From Dictyostelium discoideum (taxonomy: Eukaryota): a stretch of DNA of 64,000 bases. A program made the position numbers and the translations under genes. Under the pieces are notes generated by a model. The model worked only from the letters and a program-made list of their open reading frames with translations. It was not told where the DNA came from and did no database searches. Every line of letters begins with the position of its first letter. Within the stretch, counting starts at the first letter, position 1. Of this stretch, positions 23,776 to 29,600 are shown one piece after another. The stretch spans positions 7,200,001 through 7,264,000 of the forward strand of contig CM000151.3 of NCBI GenBank assembly GCA_000004695.1, in the 5' to 3' direction.

Positions 23776-24492
23776 ATGAGAATAAACTTTAAATTAATTT
23801 TAATAATATTAACAAGTTTTTATGGAATTATTAATTGTCAAAGTACTTGTCCATATTCTAAAACCGTAATTAATGGAGCATCAGCAACTTTTTATTCAGC
23901 AATGGATAATGGAAATTGTGGATTTGGGAAATTAACAGGACCAACTGGACCTGGAAATTATATGATTGCAGCTCTCGGTACTAAACTATATCAAAATGGA
24001 GCTCAATGTGGCCAATGTTTTAAAATTAGTAATTCTAAAAATGCTTCTGTCACTGTAATGGCCACAGATTCATGTAACGATGCTGGATATTGTCAAAGGG
24101 ATAATCATTTTGATTTATCGCCTACCGCATTCTCAATATTAGGAGCACAATCTCAAGGTGTGTTGGATGGATTATCCTATGTTAAAGTACCATGTAGAGT
24201 TAGTGGTAATGTTAAAGTTATGTTAAAAGATGGAAGTAATGCTTACTGGACATCTTTCTTGGTTTTCAATAATGCTATTGATGTTAAACAAGTTTCAATA
24301 AAGTTAAGTGGAAGCTCCACTTATGTACCACTCACTCAAACAACTTATAACTATTGGCCATCAAGTATTACTGCTGGTTCTTTCCAAGTTAGAATTGAAT
24401 CAATTGGTGGTGAATTCATTTATGTAACTATACCAAGTGTTGTTAGTAGTAAAATTTATGATACTGGTAGCCAATTCTCTTCATCGTGTTAA
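23776..24492 (+). CDS. Expansin-like secreted protein (DPBB + CBM63 domains) with signal peptide; single exon
   Basis: MRINFKLILIILTSFYGIINC signal peptide, then GASATFYSAMDNGNCGFG...GAQCGQCFKI...TDSCN...HFDLSPTAFSILG and a C-terminal beta-sandwich with conserved W/Y. It belongs to the Dictyostelium expL family. Confidence 0.8.
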   Translation: MRINFKLILIILTSFYGIINCQSTCPYSKTVINGASATFYSAMDNGNCGFGKLTGPTGPGNYMIAALGTKLYQNGAQCGQCFKISNSKNASVTVMATDSCNDAGYCQRDNHFDLSPTAFSILGAQSQGVLDGLSYVKVPCRVSGNVKVMLKDGSNAYWTSFLVFNNAIDVKQVSIKLSGSSTYVPLTQTTYNYWPSSITAGSFQVRIESIGGEFIYVTIPSVVSSKIYDTGSQFSSSC

Positions 24493-24772
24493 ATAAAAAA
24501 AATGAAAAAAAAAAAAAAAAAAAAAAAAATAATAATAATAATAAATTTTAATTTAATAAATTAATATTTAATATTATTGAATTAAATAAAAAAAAAAAAA
24601 ATACAAAATTATAATAATAAATTTTATTAAATTAAAAATAGTAAAAAGTTGTTTATTTTGTGAGGTGTAAAGTTTTTAATTTTATTTTATTTTTTGGTTA
24701 AAACTGGAAATTTTATTATTATTAAAAATTAAAAAAAAAAATAATAAAAAAATAATAAAAGAAAATCAATTA

Positions 24773-24835
24773 GTTTATCAATTTATAAGCGACTATTAAT
24801 TTAGTTTTAGCATTATAAAAATCATTACAACTAAT
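24773..24835 (-). promoter_or_regulatory. SECIS-like stem-loop in the 3'UTR of the candidate selenoprotein, ~300 nt downstream of its stop
   Basis: Minus-strand RNA: AGUUGUA-AUGA-UU-[UUUAUAA]-UGCU-AAAA-CUAAAUUAAUAGUCGC-[UUAUAAA]-U-UGAU-AAAC. It has the AUGA...UGAU non-Watson-Crick quartet, a perfect 7-bp helix II, and unpaired AAAA about 13 nt after the quartet (form-1 geometry). The helix is all A/U, so a chance occurrence cannot be excluded. Confidence 0.3.
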
Positions 24836-25139
24836 TTTATTTGAACTATTTATTTGTTATTAAAAAAAATAAAAACTACTAAAAATATACCATTACTTAT
24901 ATTTTTAATTTTGTTTTAAATTTTTATGCAACAAATAAAATAATTCAAATTTTAAAAATTCTTTTTTTTTTTTTTTTTTTTTTTTCTTTTTTTCCTTCTA
25001 ATATGTCTATTCCTTTTTTTAATTTGTTTTTTTTTTTTTTTTTTTAATTCTATTTAATTTACTATATGTACACTAAAAACTATTTGAAAAAAAAAAAAAA
25101 AAAAGAAAACCAATTTAACCTAAAATTTGTTAATTCTTT

Positions 25140-25967
25140 TTAATTCTTTTTTGAAGGACGTAATTGTGTCCAAACCTTTTTAATTTTTGGAATTAAATCG
25201 GCAGCCCAAATTGTACCAACTAAAAGACAAGCATAACCTGTATAAGTGAAAACTATAGCAGAGAACCAACCCATAACAGACAAGCAAGTTATATTTTCAT
25301 TCTCGCAACCAGGTCTATAGGCAGCAGGTGAAATGAAAGAGTGGATGGTCCAAATACTATTATCAACTAGAATATGTCTTAGAATATCAAAGGTTGCCAA
25401 TGGAACAGCGATAGCTGTAAGATAAAAAGGTCCAAATTTAATCCAATGACCTCTATCCGATGGTCTCTTTTTACATTTATGGAAATGATATTGAGCAAGG
25501 TTTGAAAGTATACTAAGTGTAATGGCGAATGTTAAAGAATGAGCTAGTTCAACGGATCCTGCACTAACTGCAACACCAGAAAGGCTTGCAATGAGCACAG
25601 GCCAACATCAAGAACCTATAAAAATCAATATAAATATATATATATATATATATTAGTTTTCATAGCACTATTTTATTGATTTGATTATTATTATTAAAAT
25701 CAAAAACTTACCAACTAAAGCTGGAATACTAATTAAAAGTGTAAGAATTGAAATGAATAATGGTTTTTTAGTTTGTTCTTCTTGTGGGGAGTTTGAGGTT
25801 GAGGAGATACCAATGTTTGCTTTTTCTTCATCGTTTGTCTTTGAAATTAATGGTGTAGACTCATCACTAGCATTATTGATAGATGATGATGATGAAGAAG
25901 GTCTAGCTCAAACGCCACCTTCACAATCTTCACCTAAATCCACTTTTGGTAAATTAAATAATGACAT
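25140..25967 (-). CDS. Candidate selenoprotein: polytopic membrane protein whose reading frame holds two in-frame TGA codons (minus-strand codons at 25908-25910 and 25608-25610); 2 exons approx 25712..25967 and 25140..25615
   Basis: ATG(25967) MSLFNLPKVDLGEDCEGGV-TGA-ARPSSSSSSINNASDESTPLISKTNDEEKANIGISSTSNSPQEEQTKKPLFISILTLLISIPALV, donor G|GTAAGT (25711), 97-nt AT-rich intron, acceptor TATAG|G (25616), then GS-TGA-CWPVLIASLSGVAVSAGSVELAHSL...(152 more aa, 4-5 TM helices) to TAA at 25140. The frame is confirmed by the ORF track: ORF 25140..25598 starts at a GTG four codons after the second TGA. Both interrupting codons are TGA, whereas TAA is the usual Dictyostelium stop, and both sit next to Cys (CEGGV-U, U-C). 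Confidence 0.5.
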
Positions 25968-26682
25968 TTCTTTTGCTTTTTTTTTTTTCTTTAACTTGTT
26001 TTTTAAAATTATTACTATTAATTATAAAATAAAGAATTAAAATGAAAAAAAAAAAATAAAGAAAATAAAGTGTTATTATTTAAAGTGTGTGTGGTTATTA
26101 ATGTAAAAATGTAATGATATAAAAAATAAAAAAATAAAAAATAAAAAAAAAAGTGAAAGAACGGTTTTTAAAAAAAAAAAAATAAAAAAAAATGAAAAAA
26201 AAACAATTATTAATATAGAAAGAAATTTCATTTTATTTTTCTTTTCCACAAAAGCGCCGACGAATAAAAAAAAAATTTTTAGATATTTATTTTAAATTTT
26301 AAAATTAGGAATTAATTAATTTTTTTACCATTAAATAAAACATTCACAAAAAAAAAAAAAAAAAAAATTTTATTTTCATTTTTTTTATTTTTTTTTTTTT
26401 TTATTGGTTAAATTTATTTATTTTTAATATGAATTTAGTATATAAAAATAGATAGAGCACTCAAGAATACACAAAATGATATAAAGTATAAAAAGGATGT
26501 AATCATTCCGTTTTTTTGATTTTTTTTTTTTTTTTTTTTTATCTAAAATTTTATTTTCAGAATTTATTTAATTTTAAATTCATTTTTTTATCTTAATAAA
26601 TACATTTTTTTTTTTTATTTTTATTTTTTTATTTTTTTATTTTTTTCTTTTTTCTTTTTTCAGGTTTTGTGACTTATTATTT

Positions 26683-29600
26683 TTATTTTGGCATTGTTGG
26701 TAAAGAGAGGGGTATGGGTGGTGTCGTTCTTCCTTGAATTGTAATTCCTGTAGATTTTGACAACGATGCTTGGTGGAATTTTGGTTTATTAAAAAGATTA
26801 CAAGTACCATTGGATAAAATTGGTTGAAAAGTAGTTGGAGAGTTATTAGTATTATTGGATGGAGGTGGTAAATCATTATTTGTTGTTACATTTCCAATGG
26901 TCGAAGATGATCGAGGTGGCGGAGCATGCTTTACAATTAAAGGAGGTGGTGGTAATTGAATTTCACTAGCAGTTTTTTTAAATGCACTATTTATATTACT
27001 AAATGGAGAAGAACGATTTGGTAAAGTACAAGTTTGATTTATTGAATTTTGATTATTGTTATTATTATTGTCATTATTATTATCATTATTATTATTATTA
27101 TTATTATTGTTATTATTATTTATTGATGATGGTTTTGAAGCAATTGGTTGTGATATTATTGATGCAGTTGTAATTGGTGATTTTGCTCGTGGTGCTGGAG
27201 TTGGTTTAGTAACTGGAGATTTTGCTCTTATCACTGTTGATGGTGGTGTTGTTTGAGGTGGTGGAGTTGGTGATACTGAATGTGGTGTTGAAGAGGATGG
27301 TGGTGGTGGTGGTAATCTATTTGTATCACCTTGTTGATATAAATAAGTTTTAGGTGGTAATGGTGGTGGAATTGAATTGTTATTATTATTGTTTGAAGAA
27401 AAATAACCATCATCATCATCATTATCAGGTGGTGGAGGTAAATTTAAACAAGATGATGGTAATGGTGGTGGAGTGAATTTTGAATTATTTGAAATTATAG
27501 GTGGAGGAATTGGTGATGTGCAAGTTGATTTATATTCAGTTTTTGTAGAAATTGTAGTTGTTGTAGTAGTTGTAGTTGTTGTGATAGTTGTAATTGATGG
27601 TGGTGGTGGTAATGGTAAACTATTGAAATCAATAGGTGGTGGTAGATTTGAAAATTCTATTGAAGGTGGTGGAGGTGGTGGAAATCTTGGTGAATTTGAT
27701 GATGAATTAATTGTTGTTGTTGTTGTGGCGGTTGTTGATGGAATTGGTATTGGTGGTGGGAATTGTAAAGGTGGTGGAGGTGGTAATAAATTTGTAAAAC
27801 TTCTAGAACCACCACCATTTTTAATTGGAACATAGTCACAACTTGATGAAAGAGGTGTATTAAAACCAGATGATGGAGCAGATAAAGGATGTGAAGAAGC
27901 AGAAGTACTTAAATATTCAGTATCAGCAGTTATTGTATTATATGGACTAGCATTTCTAGGTGGTGGAGGTGGTTTTGTCATAGAATTTGGTTTTAAAACT
28001 TGTGATGCTGGAGGTGTAGTCAATTGAGGAGAAGATGATGAATCATCACTACCATATGAAATTGATGATATTGTTTGTGGCATTCTTCTTGCATTATGTT
28101 TTGTATCTTGTTGTTGTAATTGTTGTTGTTGTTGCTGTTGTTGTTGCTGTTGTTGTTGTAATTGTTGTTGTAATTGTTGTTGAATTGATGGATCATTTTG
28201 GAAATTATAAAATGATGGTACAGAACTTGCTCTTGAAAAATTTGAAGAAGATGGTACAGTGCTTTGAAAAGTTGGAGATAATGAATCAATTACAGAATGA
28301 GTAAGAGTACTATTGGGTGAAGGGTTGGCAGAGTATGGACCACTAAGAGGTTTACCAGTTGTTGAATTATTTGGAGAAGTGAAAATATCTTTAACATTTA
28401 ATGGTGGTGGAGGTGGTTTTCTAGTTTCTCTTAAACTACCAGTTGGAGTAATTGAATTCAGTGATAATGAAGATGGTGAACCTGATGAAGTTGAGGACGA
28501 AGAAATTAAACCACATCTACCAATTGTACCATTACCACCACCACTATTTGAATGACTTTGTCTAGTATTAAAACTTGGAGATTCTAAACTTGGTGAATTA
28601 CTACCACCACTACTACCACCATTACCACAACCACTATTACTTAATAAACCAGTTAAATTTGCCGAAGATCTTGGAGATGGTGTCATTGAAATATCAATTG
28701 ATAAAGTTGGAGTACTTGATAAAGAAGATAAAGAACTTGTTGAATTTAAGAAAGTACCAGAATTCTTTTTTAAGAACCAACTATATTTAGCTTGTTTATT
28801 TTGATCAATTTTACCACCAGCCAATGATTGAATTGCAGCTAACCATTCTTTTTTCTCTGCTTCACTTGAAAAGTATAAACCAATAATCTTTTCTTTCTTT
28901 TCATTTAATACTAAAATTTCAAATCCTTCTTTATAACCAGGTAATGAATCAATTGAATCACGAATTAAAATATTTTCTAAATAAACTATTAATTTTACAG
29001 TTGAATTTGATTTTTTATTTTTAGCTAAAATTAATACATCTATATATTTTTTTATAAAAAAAAAAAAAAAAAAAAATTAATATTTTTTAAAAATTTAAAA
29101 AATAAATAAATTAATAAAATAAAATATTTTACCATTTAATAAAATACATCTTAATAATTCTTTATCTAATTTTTTTGAAACTAAACCTTCTTTTATAAAT
29201 TTTCTATTTTGATTTGATAATTTTAAATCTGAATCTAAATTTTGTAAAGAATATTCAATTTCTTTAATTTTTTTATCATTTTCTATTTTCTCGTCGGCAA
29301 GTCTTTTTTGATGATTAATTTCCTCTAAGATTGAATTAATTTTTAAGAAACAATAATTTATAAAACCATAGTCCATATGATCGATTGGAGTATTCTCTAA
29401 AAGTGATTTTAATAGTAATGGATATTTTGTAATTCTTTGAATTGGTTTAATAATTAACATTGGAAATGATAATCCTCTTGTTAAATGACTCTTTGCTGCA
29501 CCTTCAATACAATTTGAAAATACTTTTGATGAAATTTTTAATTTTTCAAATGATTCTATACATGTATTTTGATATGAACAAAATTCTTTATATAAATTTA

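What the first reader, a model, noticed from the sequence alone, without database searches (positions are those of the whole stretch)
25140..25967. Candidate two-Sec membrane selenoprotein: two in-frame UGA codons in a spliced polytopic membrane-protein gene
Seen in sequence: on the minus strand, ATG 25967 opens a frame that runs through TGA (25908-25910), continues ~65 codons to a canonical G|GTAAGT donor (25711), and resumes after a 97-nt AT-rich intron at TATAG|G (25616). There it meets a second TGA (25608-25610) three codons into exon 2, then runs 156 codons (4-5 hydrophobic helices) to TAA at 25140. The ORF track independently supports the frame: its ORF 25140..25598 begins at a GTG four codons after the second TGA. 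Both interrupting codons are TGA, although TAA is the overwhelmingly preferred Dictyostelium stop. Neither lies in a homopolymer, and both sit beside Cys (C-E-G-G-V-U and G-S-U-C-W-P), as in redox-active Sec/Cys pairs. D. discoideum is known to have Sec-insertion machinery and a tiny selenoproteome (SelK, Sep15, SPS2, a deiodinase-like protein and a 'membrane selenoprotein' MSP). This locus could be MSP, or an unrecognised multi-Sec protein. Alternatives are a pseudogene (two nonsense codons), or an upstream exon splicing in at the AG directly after the first TGA.
Basis: partly seen in the sequence, partly recalled or inferred. Interest (0 to 1): 0.85.

Follow-up and report, generated by a model that had tools for sequence, protein, structure and literature searches.

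The report
Known Dictyostelium two-selenocysteine membrane protein (MSP)
This is the already published Dictyostelium discoideum "membrane selenoprotein" gene (MSP), in which two UGA stop codons are read as selenocysteine with the help of one RNA hairpin in the 3' untranslated region.

Summary
On the minus strand, ATG 25967 opens a two-exon gene with a 96-nt intron at 25711-25616. The spliced frame is 243 codons and is interrupted only by TGA 25910-25908 (codon 20) and TGA 25610-25608 (codon 88). It ends at TAA 25142-25140. The product matches the D. discoideum MSP in Lobanov et al. 2007 (PMC2375036), whose alignment shows GGVUARP and VGSUCWP. That paper says MSP "had two Sec residues" and reports a 75Se-labelled band of the matching size.

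I added three independent checks:
- Nine related loci all keep both TGAs at the same positions, with flanking codons that change synonymously. The loci are five dictyostelid genomes, three metagenome contigs and one assembled read-run contig.
- Intron positions differ between species. In Polysphondylium violaceum an intron splits the Sec codon itself (T|GA).
- A form-2 SECIS lies at 24841-24761 (-). A covariance model built only from other species finds it as the sole significant hit in the 64-kb window (39.4 bits, E = 2e-6).

The pseudogene and alternative-exon readings are rejected. Novelty: already known. One modest extra is that the N-terminal Cys-x(2-4)-Sec tail co-occurs with the membrane Sec-Cys pair in distant homologues. 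The biochemical function is still unknown.

The parts
25712..25967 (-). msp coding exon 1 (256 nt, ends in phase 1). It encodes the acidic, Ser-rich N-terminal tail and the first hydrophobic helix.
   Evidence: Translation. Matches the published D. discoideum MSP.
25923..25925 (-). Cys15 codon (TGT), partner of Sec20 in the conserved C-E-G-G-V-U motif.
   Evidence: Invariant Cys in 8 of 8 loci. C-x4-U or C-x2-U also in L008 and L009.
25908..25910 (-). First in-frame TGA, Sec20.
   Evidence: TGA is invariant in all ten genes (the window gene plus nine related loci), with synonymous variation around it. Shown as U in Lobanov 2007.
25616..25711 (-). Intron: 96 nt, GTAAGT...TATAG, 12.5% G+C.
   Evidence: D. 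citrinum has an intron at the same site. D. purpureum, A. subglobosum and the L001 contig have none there.
25140..25615 (-). msp coding exon 2, including the TAA stop at 25142-25140. It encodes the U-C-W-P motif and the conserved membrane core.
25605..25610 (-). Second in-frame TGA (Sec88) followed directly by the Cys89 codon TGT: the family-defining adjacent Sec-Cys pair in P-A-L-V-G-S-U-C-W-P.
   Evidence: U in all five species of the published alignment. Cys-Cys in 10 homologues.
24761..24841 (-). SECIS element (form 2) in the 3'UTR. The AUGA core starts 314 nt after the stop codon.
- Helix I: 24836-24829 pairs with 24775-24768.
- UGUA: 24829-24826.
- AUGA core: 24825-24822.
- Helix II: 24819-24810 pairs with 24790-24782.
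- Unpaired apical AAA: 24808-24806.
- Apical mini-stem: 24805-24802 pairs with 24795-24792.
- 3' GA: 24779-24778.
   Evidence: Fold. Comparative structure with 9 of 14 pairs compensated. A covariance model built without D. discoideum or D. citrinum hits only here: 39.4 bits, E = 2.3e-6. The features match those described for Dictyostelium SECIS elements: UGUA before the core, a U-U mismatch after it, apical AAA, type II.

Best explanation
The locus is the msp gene of Dictyostelium discoideum, a two-exon gene for a 243-residue polytopic membrane selenoprotein.

Recoding. Both in-frame UGA codons (codons 20 and 88) are most likely recoded to selenocysteine during translation. A single form-2 SECIS hairpin directs this; its AUGA core starts 314 nt into the 3'UTR. 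By the standard eukaryotic mechanism (named from established knowledge, not tested here), the hairpin recruits the SECIS-binding protein, the Sec-specific elongation factor and tRNA-Sec. This part is shown by sequence, by comparative evidence and by the literature.

The protein (inferred). It has:
- a disordered acidic N-terminal tail carrying a Cys-x4-Sec pair;
- a first transmembrane helix;
- an adjacent Sec-Cys pair flanked by prolines (IPALVGS-U-C-WP) at the turn into a short second helix;
- three long helices with family-wide conserved polar residues (His111, Asp162, Arg165-His166, Asp170);
- a conserved Cys-x6-Cys loop.

Proposed mechanism (low confidence, about 0.3). I think MSP is a membrane-embedded thiol/selenol oxidoreductase. 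The adjacent Sec-Cys pair would cycle between selenol/thiol and selenenylsulfide. The mobile N-terminal Cys...Sec tail would shuttle redox equivalents to or from it. This resembles the C-terminal Gly-Cys-Sec-Gly arm of thioredoxin reductase and the membrane cysteine pairs of CcdA/DsbD.
For: Identity with published MSP:
- the alignment row shows MS.FNLPKVDLGEDCEGGVUARP...PALVGSUCWPVLIASLSGVAVS...

Gene structure.

Conservation:
- Both TGAs are invariant in D. citrinum, D. purpureum, Heterostelium album, Polysphondylium violaceum, Acytostelium subglobosum, metagenome contigs L001, L008 and L009, and the read-run contig L007.
- Each model has no other in-frame stop, and each ends at a stop codon.
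- Around site 1 there are 133 synonymous against 82 non-synonymous pairwise codon differences. C-E-G-G-V-U-A-R/K-P is kept in all seven dictyostelid-type sequences, including the window.
- Intron positions differ between species. In P. violaceum the intron splits the codon T|GA.
- In D. discoideum there is no in-frame Met between codon 21 and codon 199. A product containing the conserved U-C-W-P core therefore needs read-through of UGA-1.

SECIS.

Sec/Cys interchange at site 2: 10 Cys-Cys homologues.

Co-occurrence of the two Sec sites: 7 of 8 homologues with TGA at the membrane site also have an N-terminal C-x(2-4)-TGA. The DNA confirms this for L001, L007, L008 and L009.

Fold: the AlphaFold model has mean pLDDT 77.8 and a core above 90, with helices 71-87, 93-101, 107-137, 145-173 and 202-226.

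Algal MSPs occur almost only as Sec forms (PMC7539508).
Against: - Rfam's SECIS models gave no hit here even at E <= 10. The element is 17% G+C and was recognised only by inspection, by comparative folding and by a family-specific model.
- The single-sequence fold energy is not better than shuffles (z = -0.86).
- The published 75Se band shows selenium in a protein of MSP's size. It does not show occupancy of each of the two sites.
- Nothing here measures how efficiently UGA-1 is decoded. It lies only 19 codons from the start, so some termination there is possible.
- Membrane topology, and so which side each redox centre faces, is unresolved.
Confidence: 0.93

Rival explanations
1. Pseudogene: a decaying membrane-protein gene that has picked up two nonsense mutations.
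For: Two in-frame stop codons in 243 codons. Several GenBank gene models of the orthologues avoid them.
Against: - Both stops are TGA and sit at exactly homologous codons in nine other loci, including homologues only about 40-45% identical.
- There are no other stops or frameshifts, and the flanking codons show synonymous variation.
- A conserved SECIS with compensatory changes lies downstream.
- A 75Se-labelled band of matching size has been published.
Confidence: 0.01
2. The first TGA is not in the mature coding sequence. Either an upstream exon splices in at the AG right after it, or translation starts elsewhere. Only the second UGA would then encode Sec.
For: TGAG does create an AG at 25909-25908. 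Automated models for D. cf. discoideum, D. citrinum, D. purpureum and H. album splice out the first TGA.
Against: - The peptide upstream of TGA-1 (MSFF...E-D-C-E-G-G-V) is conserved at the protein level with synonymous codon changes in all dictyostelid loci.
- The start is an A-rich-context ATG at the same relative place in each.
- Intronless contigs L001, L007, L008 and L009 carry ATG, C-x(2-4)-TGA and U-C-W-P in one continuous frame.
- D. discoideum has no in-frame Met between codon 21 and codon 199.
- The published model includes U20.
Confidence: 0.03
3. UGA-1 is in the mRNA but acts mainly as a terminator or regulatory checkpoint. Selenium supply would gate production of full-length protein, and the Sec at that site would have no catalytic role.
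For: Its position, 19 codons from the start, is unusual. In the published alignment the algal MSPs show only the membrane Sec. No per-site occupancy data exist.
Against: - The invariant Cys two or four residues upstream, and the conserved residues on both sides, look like a functional Cys...Sec redox pair rather than a mere gate.
- The motif co-occurs with Sec at the membrane site in 7 of 8 homologues. One Cys-form homologue has C-x4-C at the equivalent place.
Confidence: 0.05

Closest known systems
MSP (membrane selenoprotein) of D. discoideum, Ostreococcus, Chlamydomonas and Volvox; Lobanov et al. 2007, Genome Biol 8:R198 (PMC2375036)
   Same: It is this gene. The sequence matches the published D. 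discoideum row, including both U positions. It has the same P-A-L-V-G-S-U-C-W-P motif and the same SECIS traits: UGUA before AUGA, a U-U mismatch, apical AAA, type II.
   Different: Nothing essential. By its printed numbering, the published alignment row is 11 residues shorter (232 against 243). It lacks the Ser-rich stretch after A-R-P. This could be an older gene model or a text-extraction artefact. D. citrinum and D. purpureum keep that stretch in frame.
Thioredoxin reductase C-terminal Gly-Cys-Sec-Gly redox arm (from general knowledge, not tested here)
   Same: An adjacent Cys/Sec pair that can form a selenenylsulfide, and a flexible terminal segment carrying a Cys...Sec centre.
   Different: The order is Sec-Cys, not Cys-Sec. 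The pair is embedded between hydrophobic helices, not at a soluble C-terminus. There is no flavoprotein domain and no sequence or fold relationship.
CcdA/DsbD-type membrane thiol-disulfide transporters (from general knowledge, not tested here)
   Same: Redox-active chalcogen residues flanked by prolines inside or next to short membrane helices. The idea of passing reducing equivalents across a membrane is shared.
   Different: No detectable sequence or structural similarity. MSP has one adjacent pair rather than two separated cysteines on pseudo-symmetric half-helices.
Multi-Sec selenoproteins served by few SECIS elements, e.g. selenoprotein P (PMC5133445 appeared in the listing)
   Same: More than one UGA in one reading frame is decoded as Sec.
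   Different: MSP has only two UGAs and one SECIS, and it is a membrane protein. It is unrelated in sequence.

Membership tests
Eukaryotic selenoprotein gene (UGA-to-Sec recoding) | In-frame UGA with protein-level conservation on both sides across species | tested here: met
   Both TGAs are invariant in the window gene and nine related loci. The flanks are conserved, with synonymous codon variation.
Eukaryotic selenoprotein gene (UGA-to-Sec recoding) | SECIS element in the 3'UTR: AUGA...GA core, helix II of roughly 10-12 bp, unpaired AA(A) in the apical loop | tested here: met
   Located at 24841-24761 (-). All 7 orthologous elements fold to form-2 SECIS. AUGA, AAAC and UGA are invariant. 9 of 14 pairs show compensatory changes. 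The independent covariance model scores 39.4 bits, E = 2.3e-6, and is the sole significant hit in 64 kb.
Eukaryotic selenoprotein gene (UGA-to-Sec recoding) | Cys-containing homologues aligned at the Sec position | tested here: met
   Site 2: 10 homologues have Cys-Cys-W/F-P. Site 1: only one Cys-form candidate (C-E-Y-G-N-C in P0046), so support there is weak.
Eukaryotic selenoprotein gene (UGA-to-Sec recoding) | Selenium actually incorporated (75Se labelling or mass spectrometry) in an organism with Sec machinery | not testable with these tools
   Literature only. Lobanov 2007 reports Sec-tRNA in D. discoideum and a 75Se band of MSP's size. Per-site occupancy is not shown.
MSP family (Lobanov 2007) | Sequence match to published MSPs, including the P-A-L-V-G-S/A-U-C-W-P motif and the R-H-x-L-x-D and Y-R-x-x-C...C-L-S blocks, in a multi-helix membrane protein | tested here: met
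   The profile search finds 508 clusters of relatives.
Rfam SECIS families (e.g. SECIS_1) | Score at or above the family gathering threshold | tested here: not met
   No SECIS family hit in 24400-26100 even at E <= 10. The element is 17% G+C. This lowers only the claim that it matches Rfam's model, not the claim that it is a SECIS.
Pfam GtrA/DPMS transmembrane domain (PF04138) | Score at or above the gathering threshold of 26.1 bits | tested here: not met
   15.1 bits, E = 0.027. Treated as a chance match between hydrophobic helices.
Pseudogene | Stops or frameshifts that are not conserved, with relaxed constraint downstream | tested here: not met

The most novel reading that the evidence does not exclude
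The two-selenium layout is not special to Dictyostelium. It may be an ancient, co-inherited feature of Sec-type MSPs, with a cytosolic-type N-terminal tail carrying Cys-x(2-4)-Sec and a proline-flanked membrane Sec-Cys pair. In that reading, the tail, the membrane pair and the conserved Cys-x6-Cys loop form a three-centre relay. The relay would move reducing equivalents (or a soft metal or metalloid) across a membrane. MSP would then be the founding member of an uncharacterised class of membrane selenoenzymes with no Pfam model and no solved structure.

The co-occurrence is shown here: 7 of 8 Sec-type homologues have both motifs, and the DNA was checked in four of them. The relay itself is untested.
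Probability: 0.3. Interest if true: 0.55.

Novelty: already known. Interest (0 to 1): 0.15.

Why it matters
For the genome scan, this is a true positive with no novelty.

Three practical points come out of the check:
- Current GenBank models for at least six dictyostelid orthologues are wrong. They invent introns or split the gene to avoid the TGAs.
- Generic Rfam SECIS models miss these very AT-rich elements. A clade-specific model finds them cleanly.
- MSP is still an orphan in function, and the linked N-terminal Cys...Sec tail is a concrete handle for experiments.

Tried and rejected
- Rfam cmscan of 24400-26100 at E <= 10 found no SECIS family, only chance-level miRNA and sRNA matches.
- The single-sequence fold of the SECIS region was not better than shuffles (z = -0.86). 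Support therefore had to come from comparison.
- Pfam gave only a sub-threshold GtrA_DPMS_TM hit. NCBIfam gave nothing meaningful.
- A PDB sequence-profile search gave only E > 0.2 matches to Vtc1.
- The first AlphaFold run on a 10-sequence alignment was poor (pLDDT 58.9). Distances between the redox centres could not be measured.
- The afdb50 fold library was unavailable.
The orthologue P0003, which has W at both Sec positions, was modelled instead.
- MAFFT could not place helix I of the SECIS in one register across species. It is supported only by per-sequence constrained folds.
- The pseudogene and upstream-exon readings were considered and rejected (see rival explanations).

Full report
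**1. What is in the sequence**

- The ATG is at 25967-25965, in an A-rich context.
- The frame meets TGA at 25910-25908 (codon 20), in the context G-E-D-C-E-G-G-V-TGA-A-R-P.
- It continues 65 codons to G|GTAAGT. Exon 1 ends at 25712 in phase 1.
- The intron runs 25711-25616. It is 96 nt, not 97, and 12.5% G+C.
- The frame resumes after TATAG at 25615. It reads G-S-TGA(25610-25608)-C-W-P and runs to TAA at 25142-25140.

The spliced CDS is 732 nt. Its frame holds only these two TGAs, while the other two frames hold 12 and 25 stops. The exons are 33-37% G+C against 11-12% in the flanks. Hydrophobic stretches fall at residues about 69-110, 146-169 and 199-224.

**2. Identity**

A full-text search found Lobanov et al. 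2007 (PMC2375036).
- The paper lists five D. discoideum selenoproteins: SPS2, SelK, Sep15, a deiodinase homologue and MSP.
- It reports four 75Se-labelled bands that match SPS, MSP, DI and Sep15 in size.

The MSP alignment in its supplementary file 2 has a D. discoideum row reading MS.FNLPKVDLGEDCEGGVUARP...LISIPALVGSUCWPVLIASLSGVAVS-AGSVELAHSLTFAITLSILSNLAQY...PSKKN. Allowing for text-extraction noise, that is the protein encoded here, with U at both TGAs. The locus is therefore the published msp gene.

One discrepancy remains. By its printed numbering the published row is 11 residues shorter (232 against 243 aa), and it lacks the Ser-rich stretch after A-R-P. There is no GT...AG intron in that stretch. 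D. citrinum and D. purpureum keep it in frame. I therefore take the 243-residue reading as correct for this window.

**3.

A protein search with the conceptual product (U replaced by C) returned nine relatives. Their sequences show that automated gene models avoid the TGAs.
- D. cf. discoideum, D. citrinum, D. purpureum, P. violaceum and H. album models have invented introns that remove G-E-D-C-E-G-G-V-U and/or G-S-U-C-W-P.
- The A. subglobosum gene is split in two.
- One metagenome prediction (P0003) reads both TGAs as Trp.

I fetched the DNA and rebuilt each gene. Every locus gives an open frame with exactly two in-frame TGAs at homologous codons and no other stop. The eight genes are:
- the window;
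- D. citrinum (L006);
- D. purpureum (L002);
- H. album (L003);
- P. violaceum (L004);
- A. subglobosum (L005);
- metagenome contig L001;
- read-run contig L007.

Codon-level comparison shows the following.
- TGA is the only codon seen at both sites.
- The codons around site 1 (E/D-D-C-E-G-G-V-U-A-R/K-P) use 2-5 different codons per column for 1-4 amino acids. That gives 133 synonymous against 82 non-synonymous pairwise differences.
- Site 2 (S-I-P-A-L-V/I-G-S/A-U-C-W-P) behaves in the same way.

Intron positions are not conserved.
- D. discoideum and D. citrinum have the phase-1 intron two codons before Sec88.
- D. purpureum, A. subglobosum and L001 have none there.
- H. album has three introns elsewhere.
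- In P. violaceum the intron splits the Sec codon itself (TCT T|gtaaat...atatag|GA TGT TGG). The TGA exists only after splicing.

L001 and L007 are intronless and carry ATG, both TGAs and the terminal stop in one frame. L007 carries sequencing-adapter sequence at its 5' end and looks like a cDNA.

In D. discoideum there is no in-frame Met between codon 21 and codon 199. Any product that contains the conserved core must therefore read through UGA-1. Together these results reject both the pseudogene reading and the upstream-exon reading.

**4.

Rfam found no SECIS family in 24400-26100 even at E <= 10. Inspection of the 3'UTR showed UGUA-AUGA at 24829-24822 and UGAU at 24780-24777.

The minimum-energy fold of 24845-24755 gives:
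- helix I;
- an internal loop holding AUGA and GA;
- a 9-bp helix II;
- an apical loop with AAA plus a mini-stem.

That is a form-2 (type II) SECIS. It has the Dictyostelium-specific traits Lobanov et al. describe: UGUA before the core, a U-U mismatch after it, and apical AAA. On its own the fold is not better than shuffles (z = -0.86), as expected for 17% G+C.

Homologous elements sit in the 3'UTRs of D. citrinum, D. purpureum, H. album, A. subglobosum, P. violaceum and L007.
- In the 7-way alignment, AUGA, AAAC, GUC and UGA are invariant.
- RNAalifold predicts 14 pairs, of which 9 show compensatory double changes.
- Constrained folds of each sequence give the same architecture, including helix I.

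To avoid circularity I built a covariance model from the five elements that are not from D. discoideum or D. citrinum. I then searched the whole 64-kb window. The only significant hit is 24841-24761 (-), at 39.4 bits and E = 2.3e-6. The next best has E = 0.31. One SECIS thus serves two UGAs that lie about 990 and 780 nt upstream of it in the mature mRNA.

**5. The protein family**

There is no Pfam family above threshold (GtrA_DPMS_TM scores 15.1 bits against a cut-off of 26.1). NCBIfam gives nothing, and there is no solved relative by sequence.

A profile search of 1.84 billion representatives found 508 clusters at E <= 1e-3. Most start just after the membrane TGA, so they are truncated predictions of Sec forms.

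- Eight have W there, which is TGA read under a Trp-reading genetic code. This is verified as TGA in the DNA of L001, L008 and L009. The same holds for L007, whose called gene (P0009) begins only after the membrane TGA and so is not among the eight.
- Seven of those eight also have an N-terminal C-x(2-4)-W, meaning C-x(2-4)-Sec.
- Ten are Cys-Cys forms. Only one of them has an N-terminal C-x4-C.

L008 and L009 end in TAG and TAA, so their organisms use TGA as Sec, not Trp. The second, N-terminal Sec is therefore not peculiar to Dictyostelium, although the published alignment shows it only in that species. Jiang et al. 2020 (PMC7539508) note that algal MSPs are almost exclusively Sec forms.

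Family-wide conserved residues, in D. discoideum numbering, are:
- His111;
- Gly147-Pro148;
- Asp162, Arg165-His166 and Asp170 (the D-x-x-R-H-x-L-x-D helix);
- Tyr185;
- Cys189, with a second Cys (Cys196) in most members;
- Gly201, Thr209, Gly212, Trp222 and Lys229.

**6. How it most likely works**

Supported by sequence, by comparison or by the literature:
- the gene structure;
- conservation of both UGAs;
- the SECIS;
- the published 75Se band.

Inferred from standard knowledge of eukaryotic Sec insertion:
- the SECIS recruits SBP2, eEFSec and Sec-tRNA to both UGAs.

Inferred with low confidence:
- The adjacent Sec88-Cys89 pair is flanked by prolines at the turn after helix 1. It would be a selenenylsulfide/selenol-thiol redox centre.
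- The disordered N-terminal Cys15...Sec20 pair would be a mobile second centre that exchanges with it.
- The positive-inside rule places the K/R-rich 130-145 loop and the C-terminus in the cytosol. It places the Cys-x6-Cys loop outside.
- If residues 88-106 form a re-entrant or half-helix element, the Lys-Lys-flanked N-terminal tail is cytosolic too. A route from tail to membrane pair to outer loop would then be geometrically possible.

**7. Verdict**

- The interpretation (MSP, two Sec) is supported.
- Novelty: already known.
- Interest is low (0.15).

The co-occurrence of the N-terminal Cys...Sec tail with the membrane Sec-Cys pair across distant eukaryotes, and the systematic mis-annotation of dictyostelid orthologues, are the only additions.

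Noticed in passing
L002 3001-3801; L003 3001-3968; L004 2501-3311; L005 2153-3032; L006 2501-3406: Deposited gene models of the MSP orthologues avoid the Sec codons by inventing introns or splitting the gene. This affects D. purpureum DICPUDRAFT_52650, H. album 'membrane selenoprotein' (195 aa), P. violaceum CYY_007851, A. subglobosum (split into 75-aa and 153-aa genes), D. citrinum and D. cf. discoideum. All are mis-annotated. My rebuilt models each give one frame with two TGAs.
   Followed up: yes
L004 2769-2847: In Polysphondylium violaceum an intron interrupts the membrane Sec codon itself (T|GA). The UGA is created only by splicing.
   Followed up: partly
L007 40-687; L008 95-784; L009 187-876: Distant, non-dictyostelid-looking homologues also carry two in-frame TGAs. 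They come from a read-run assembly and two metagenomes, and are 38-44% identical to P0003. One TGA is an N-terminal C-x4-U or C-x2-U, and the other is the membrane U-C-W-P. SECIS-like hairpins lie downstream, and the genes end in TAA or TAG. Among representative homologues, 7 of 8 Sec-type proteins have both motifs, whereas only 1 of 10 Cys-Cys types has an N-terminal C-x4-C.
   Followed up: partly
window 25880-25850 (codons ~24-36): By its residue numbering, the published D. discoideum MSP alignment row (Lobanov 2007, supplementary file 2) is 11 residues shorter than this window's product. It lacks the Ser-rich stretch SSSSSSINNAS. This could be an older gene model, a strain difference or a text-extraction artefact. 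No intron signals are present in that stretch.
   Followed up: partly
window 23776-24492 (+): A convergent neighbour gene encodes a 238-aa secreted-looking expansin-like protein (Pfam DPBB_1, E = 6e-11; Expansin_C just below its cut-off). Its stop lies about 270 nt from the msp SECIS. The two 3'UTRs therefore share a short, extremely AT-rich spacer.
   Followed up: partly
window 26683-28824 (-): Upstream of msp lies a 713-codon ORF. It is very rich in Pro, Ser, Thr, Asn and Gln, with poly-Q, poly-N and PPPP runs, and has no Pfam match. It looks like a typical Dictyostelium low-complexity protein and was not examined further.
   Followed up: no
window 24761-24841 (-) and L002-L007 SECIS regions: Rfam release 15 SECIS models miss these AT-rich dictyostelid SECIS elements completely. 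A 5-sequence clade-specific covariance model recovers the D. discoideum element at E = 2e-6. Generic SECIS screens probably under-call selenoproteins in AT-rich protists.
   Followed up: partly
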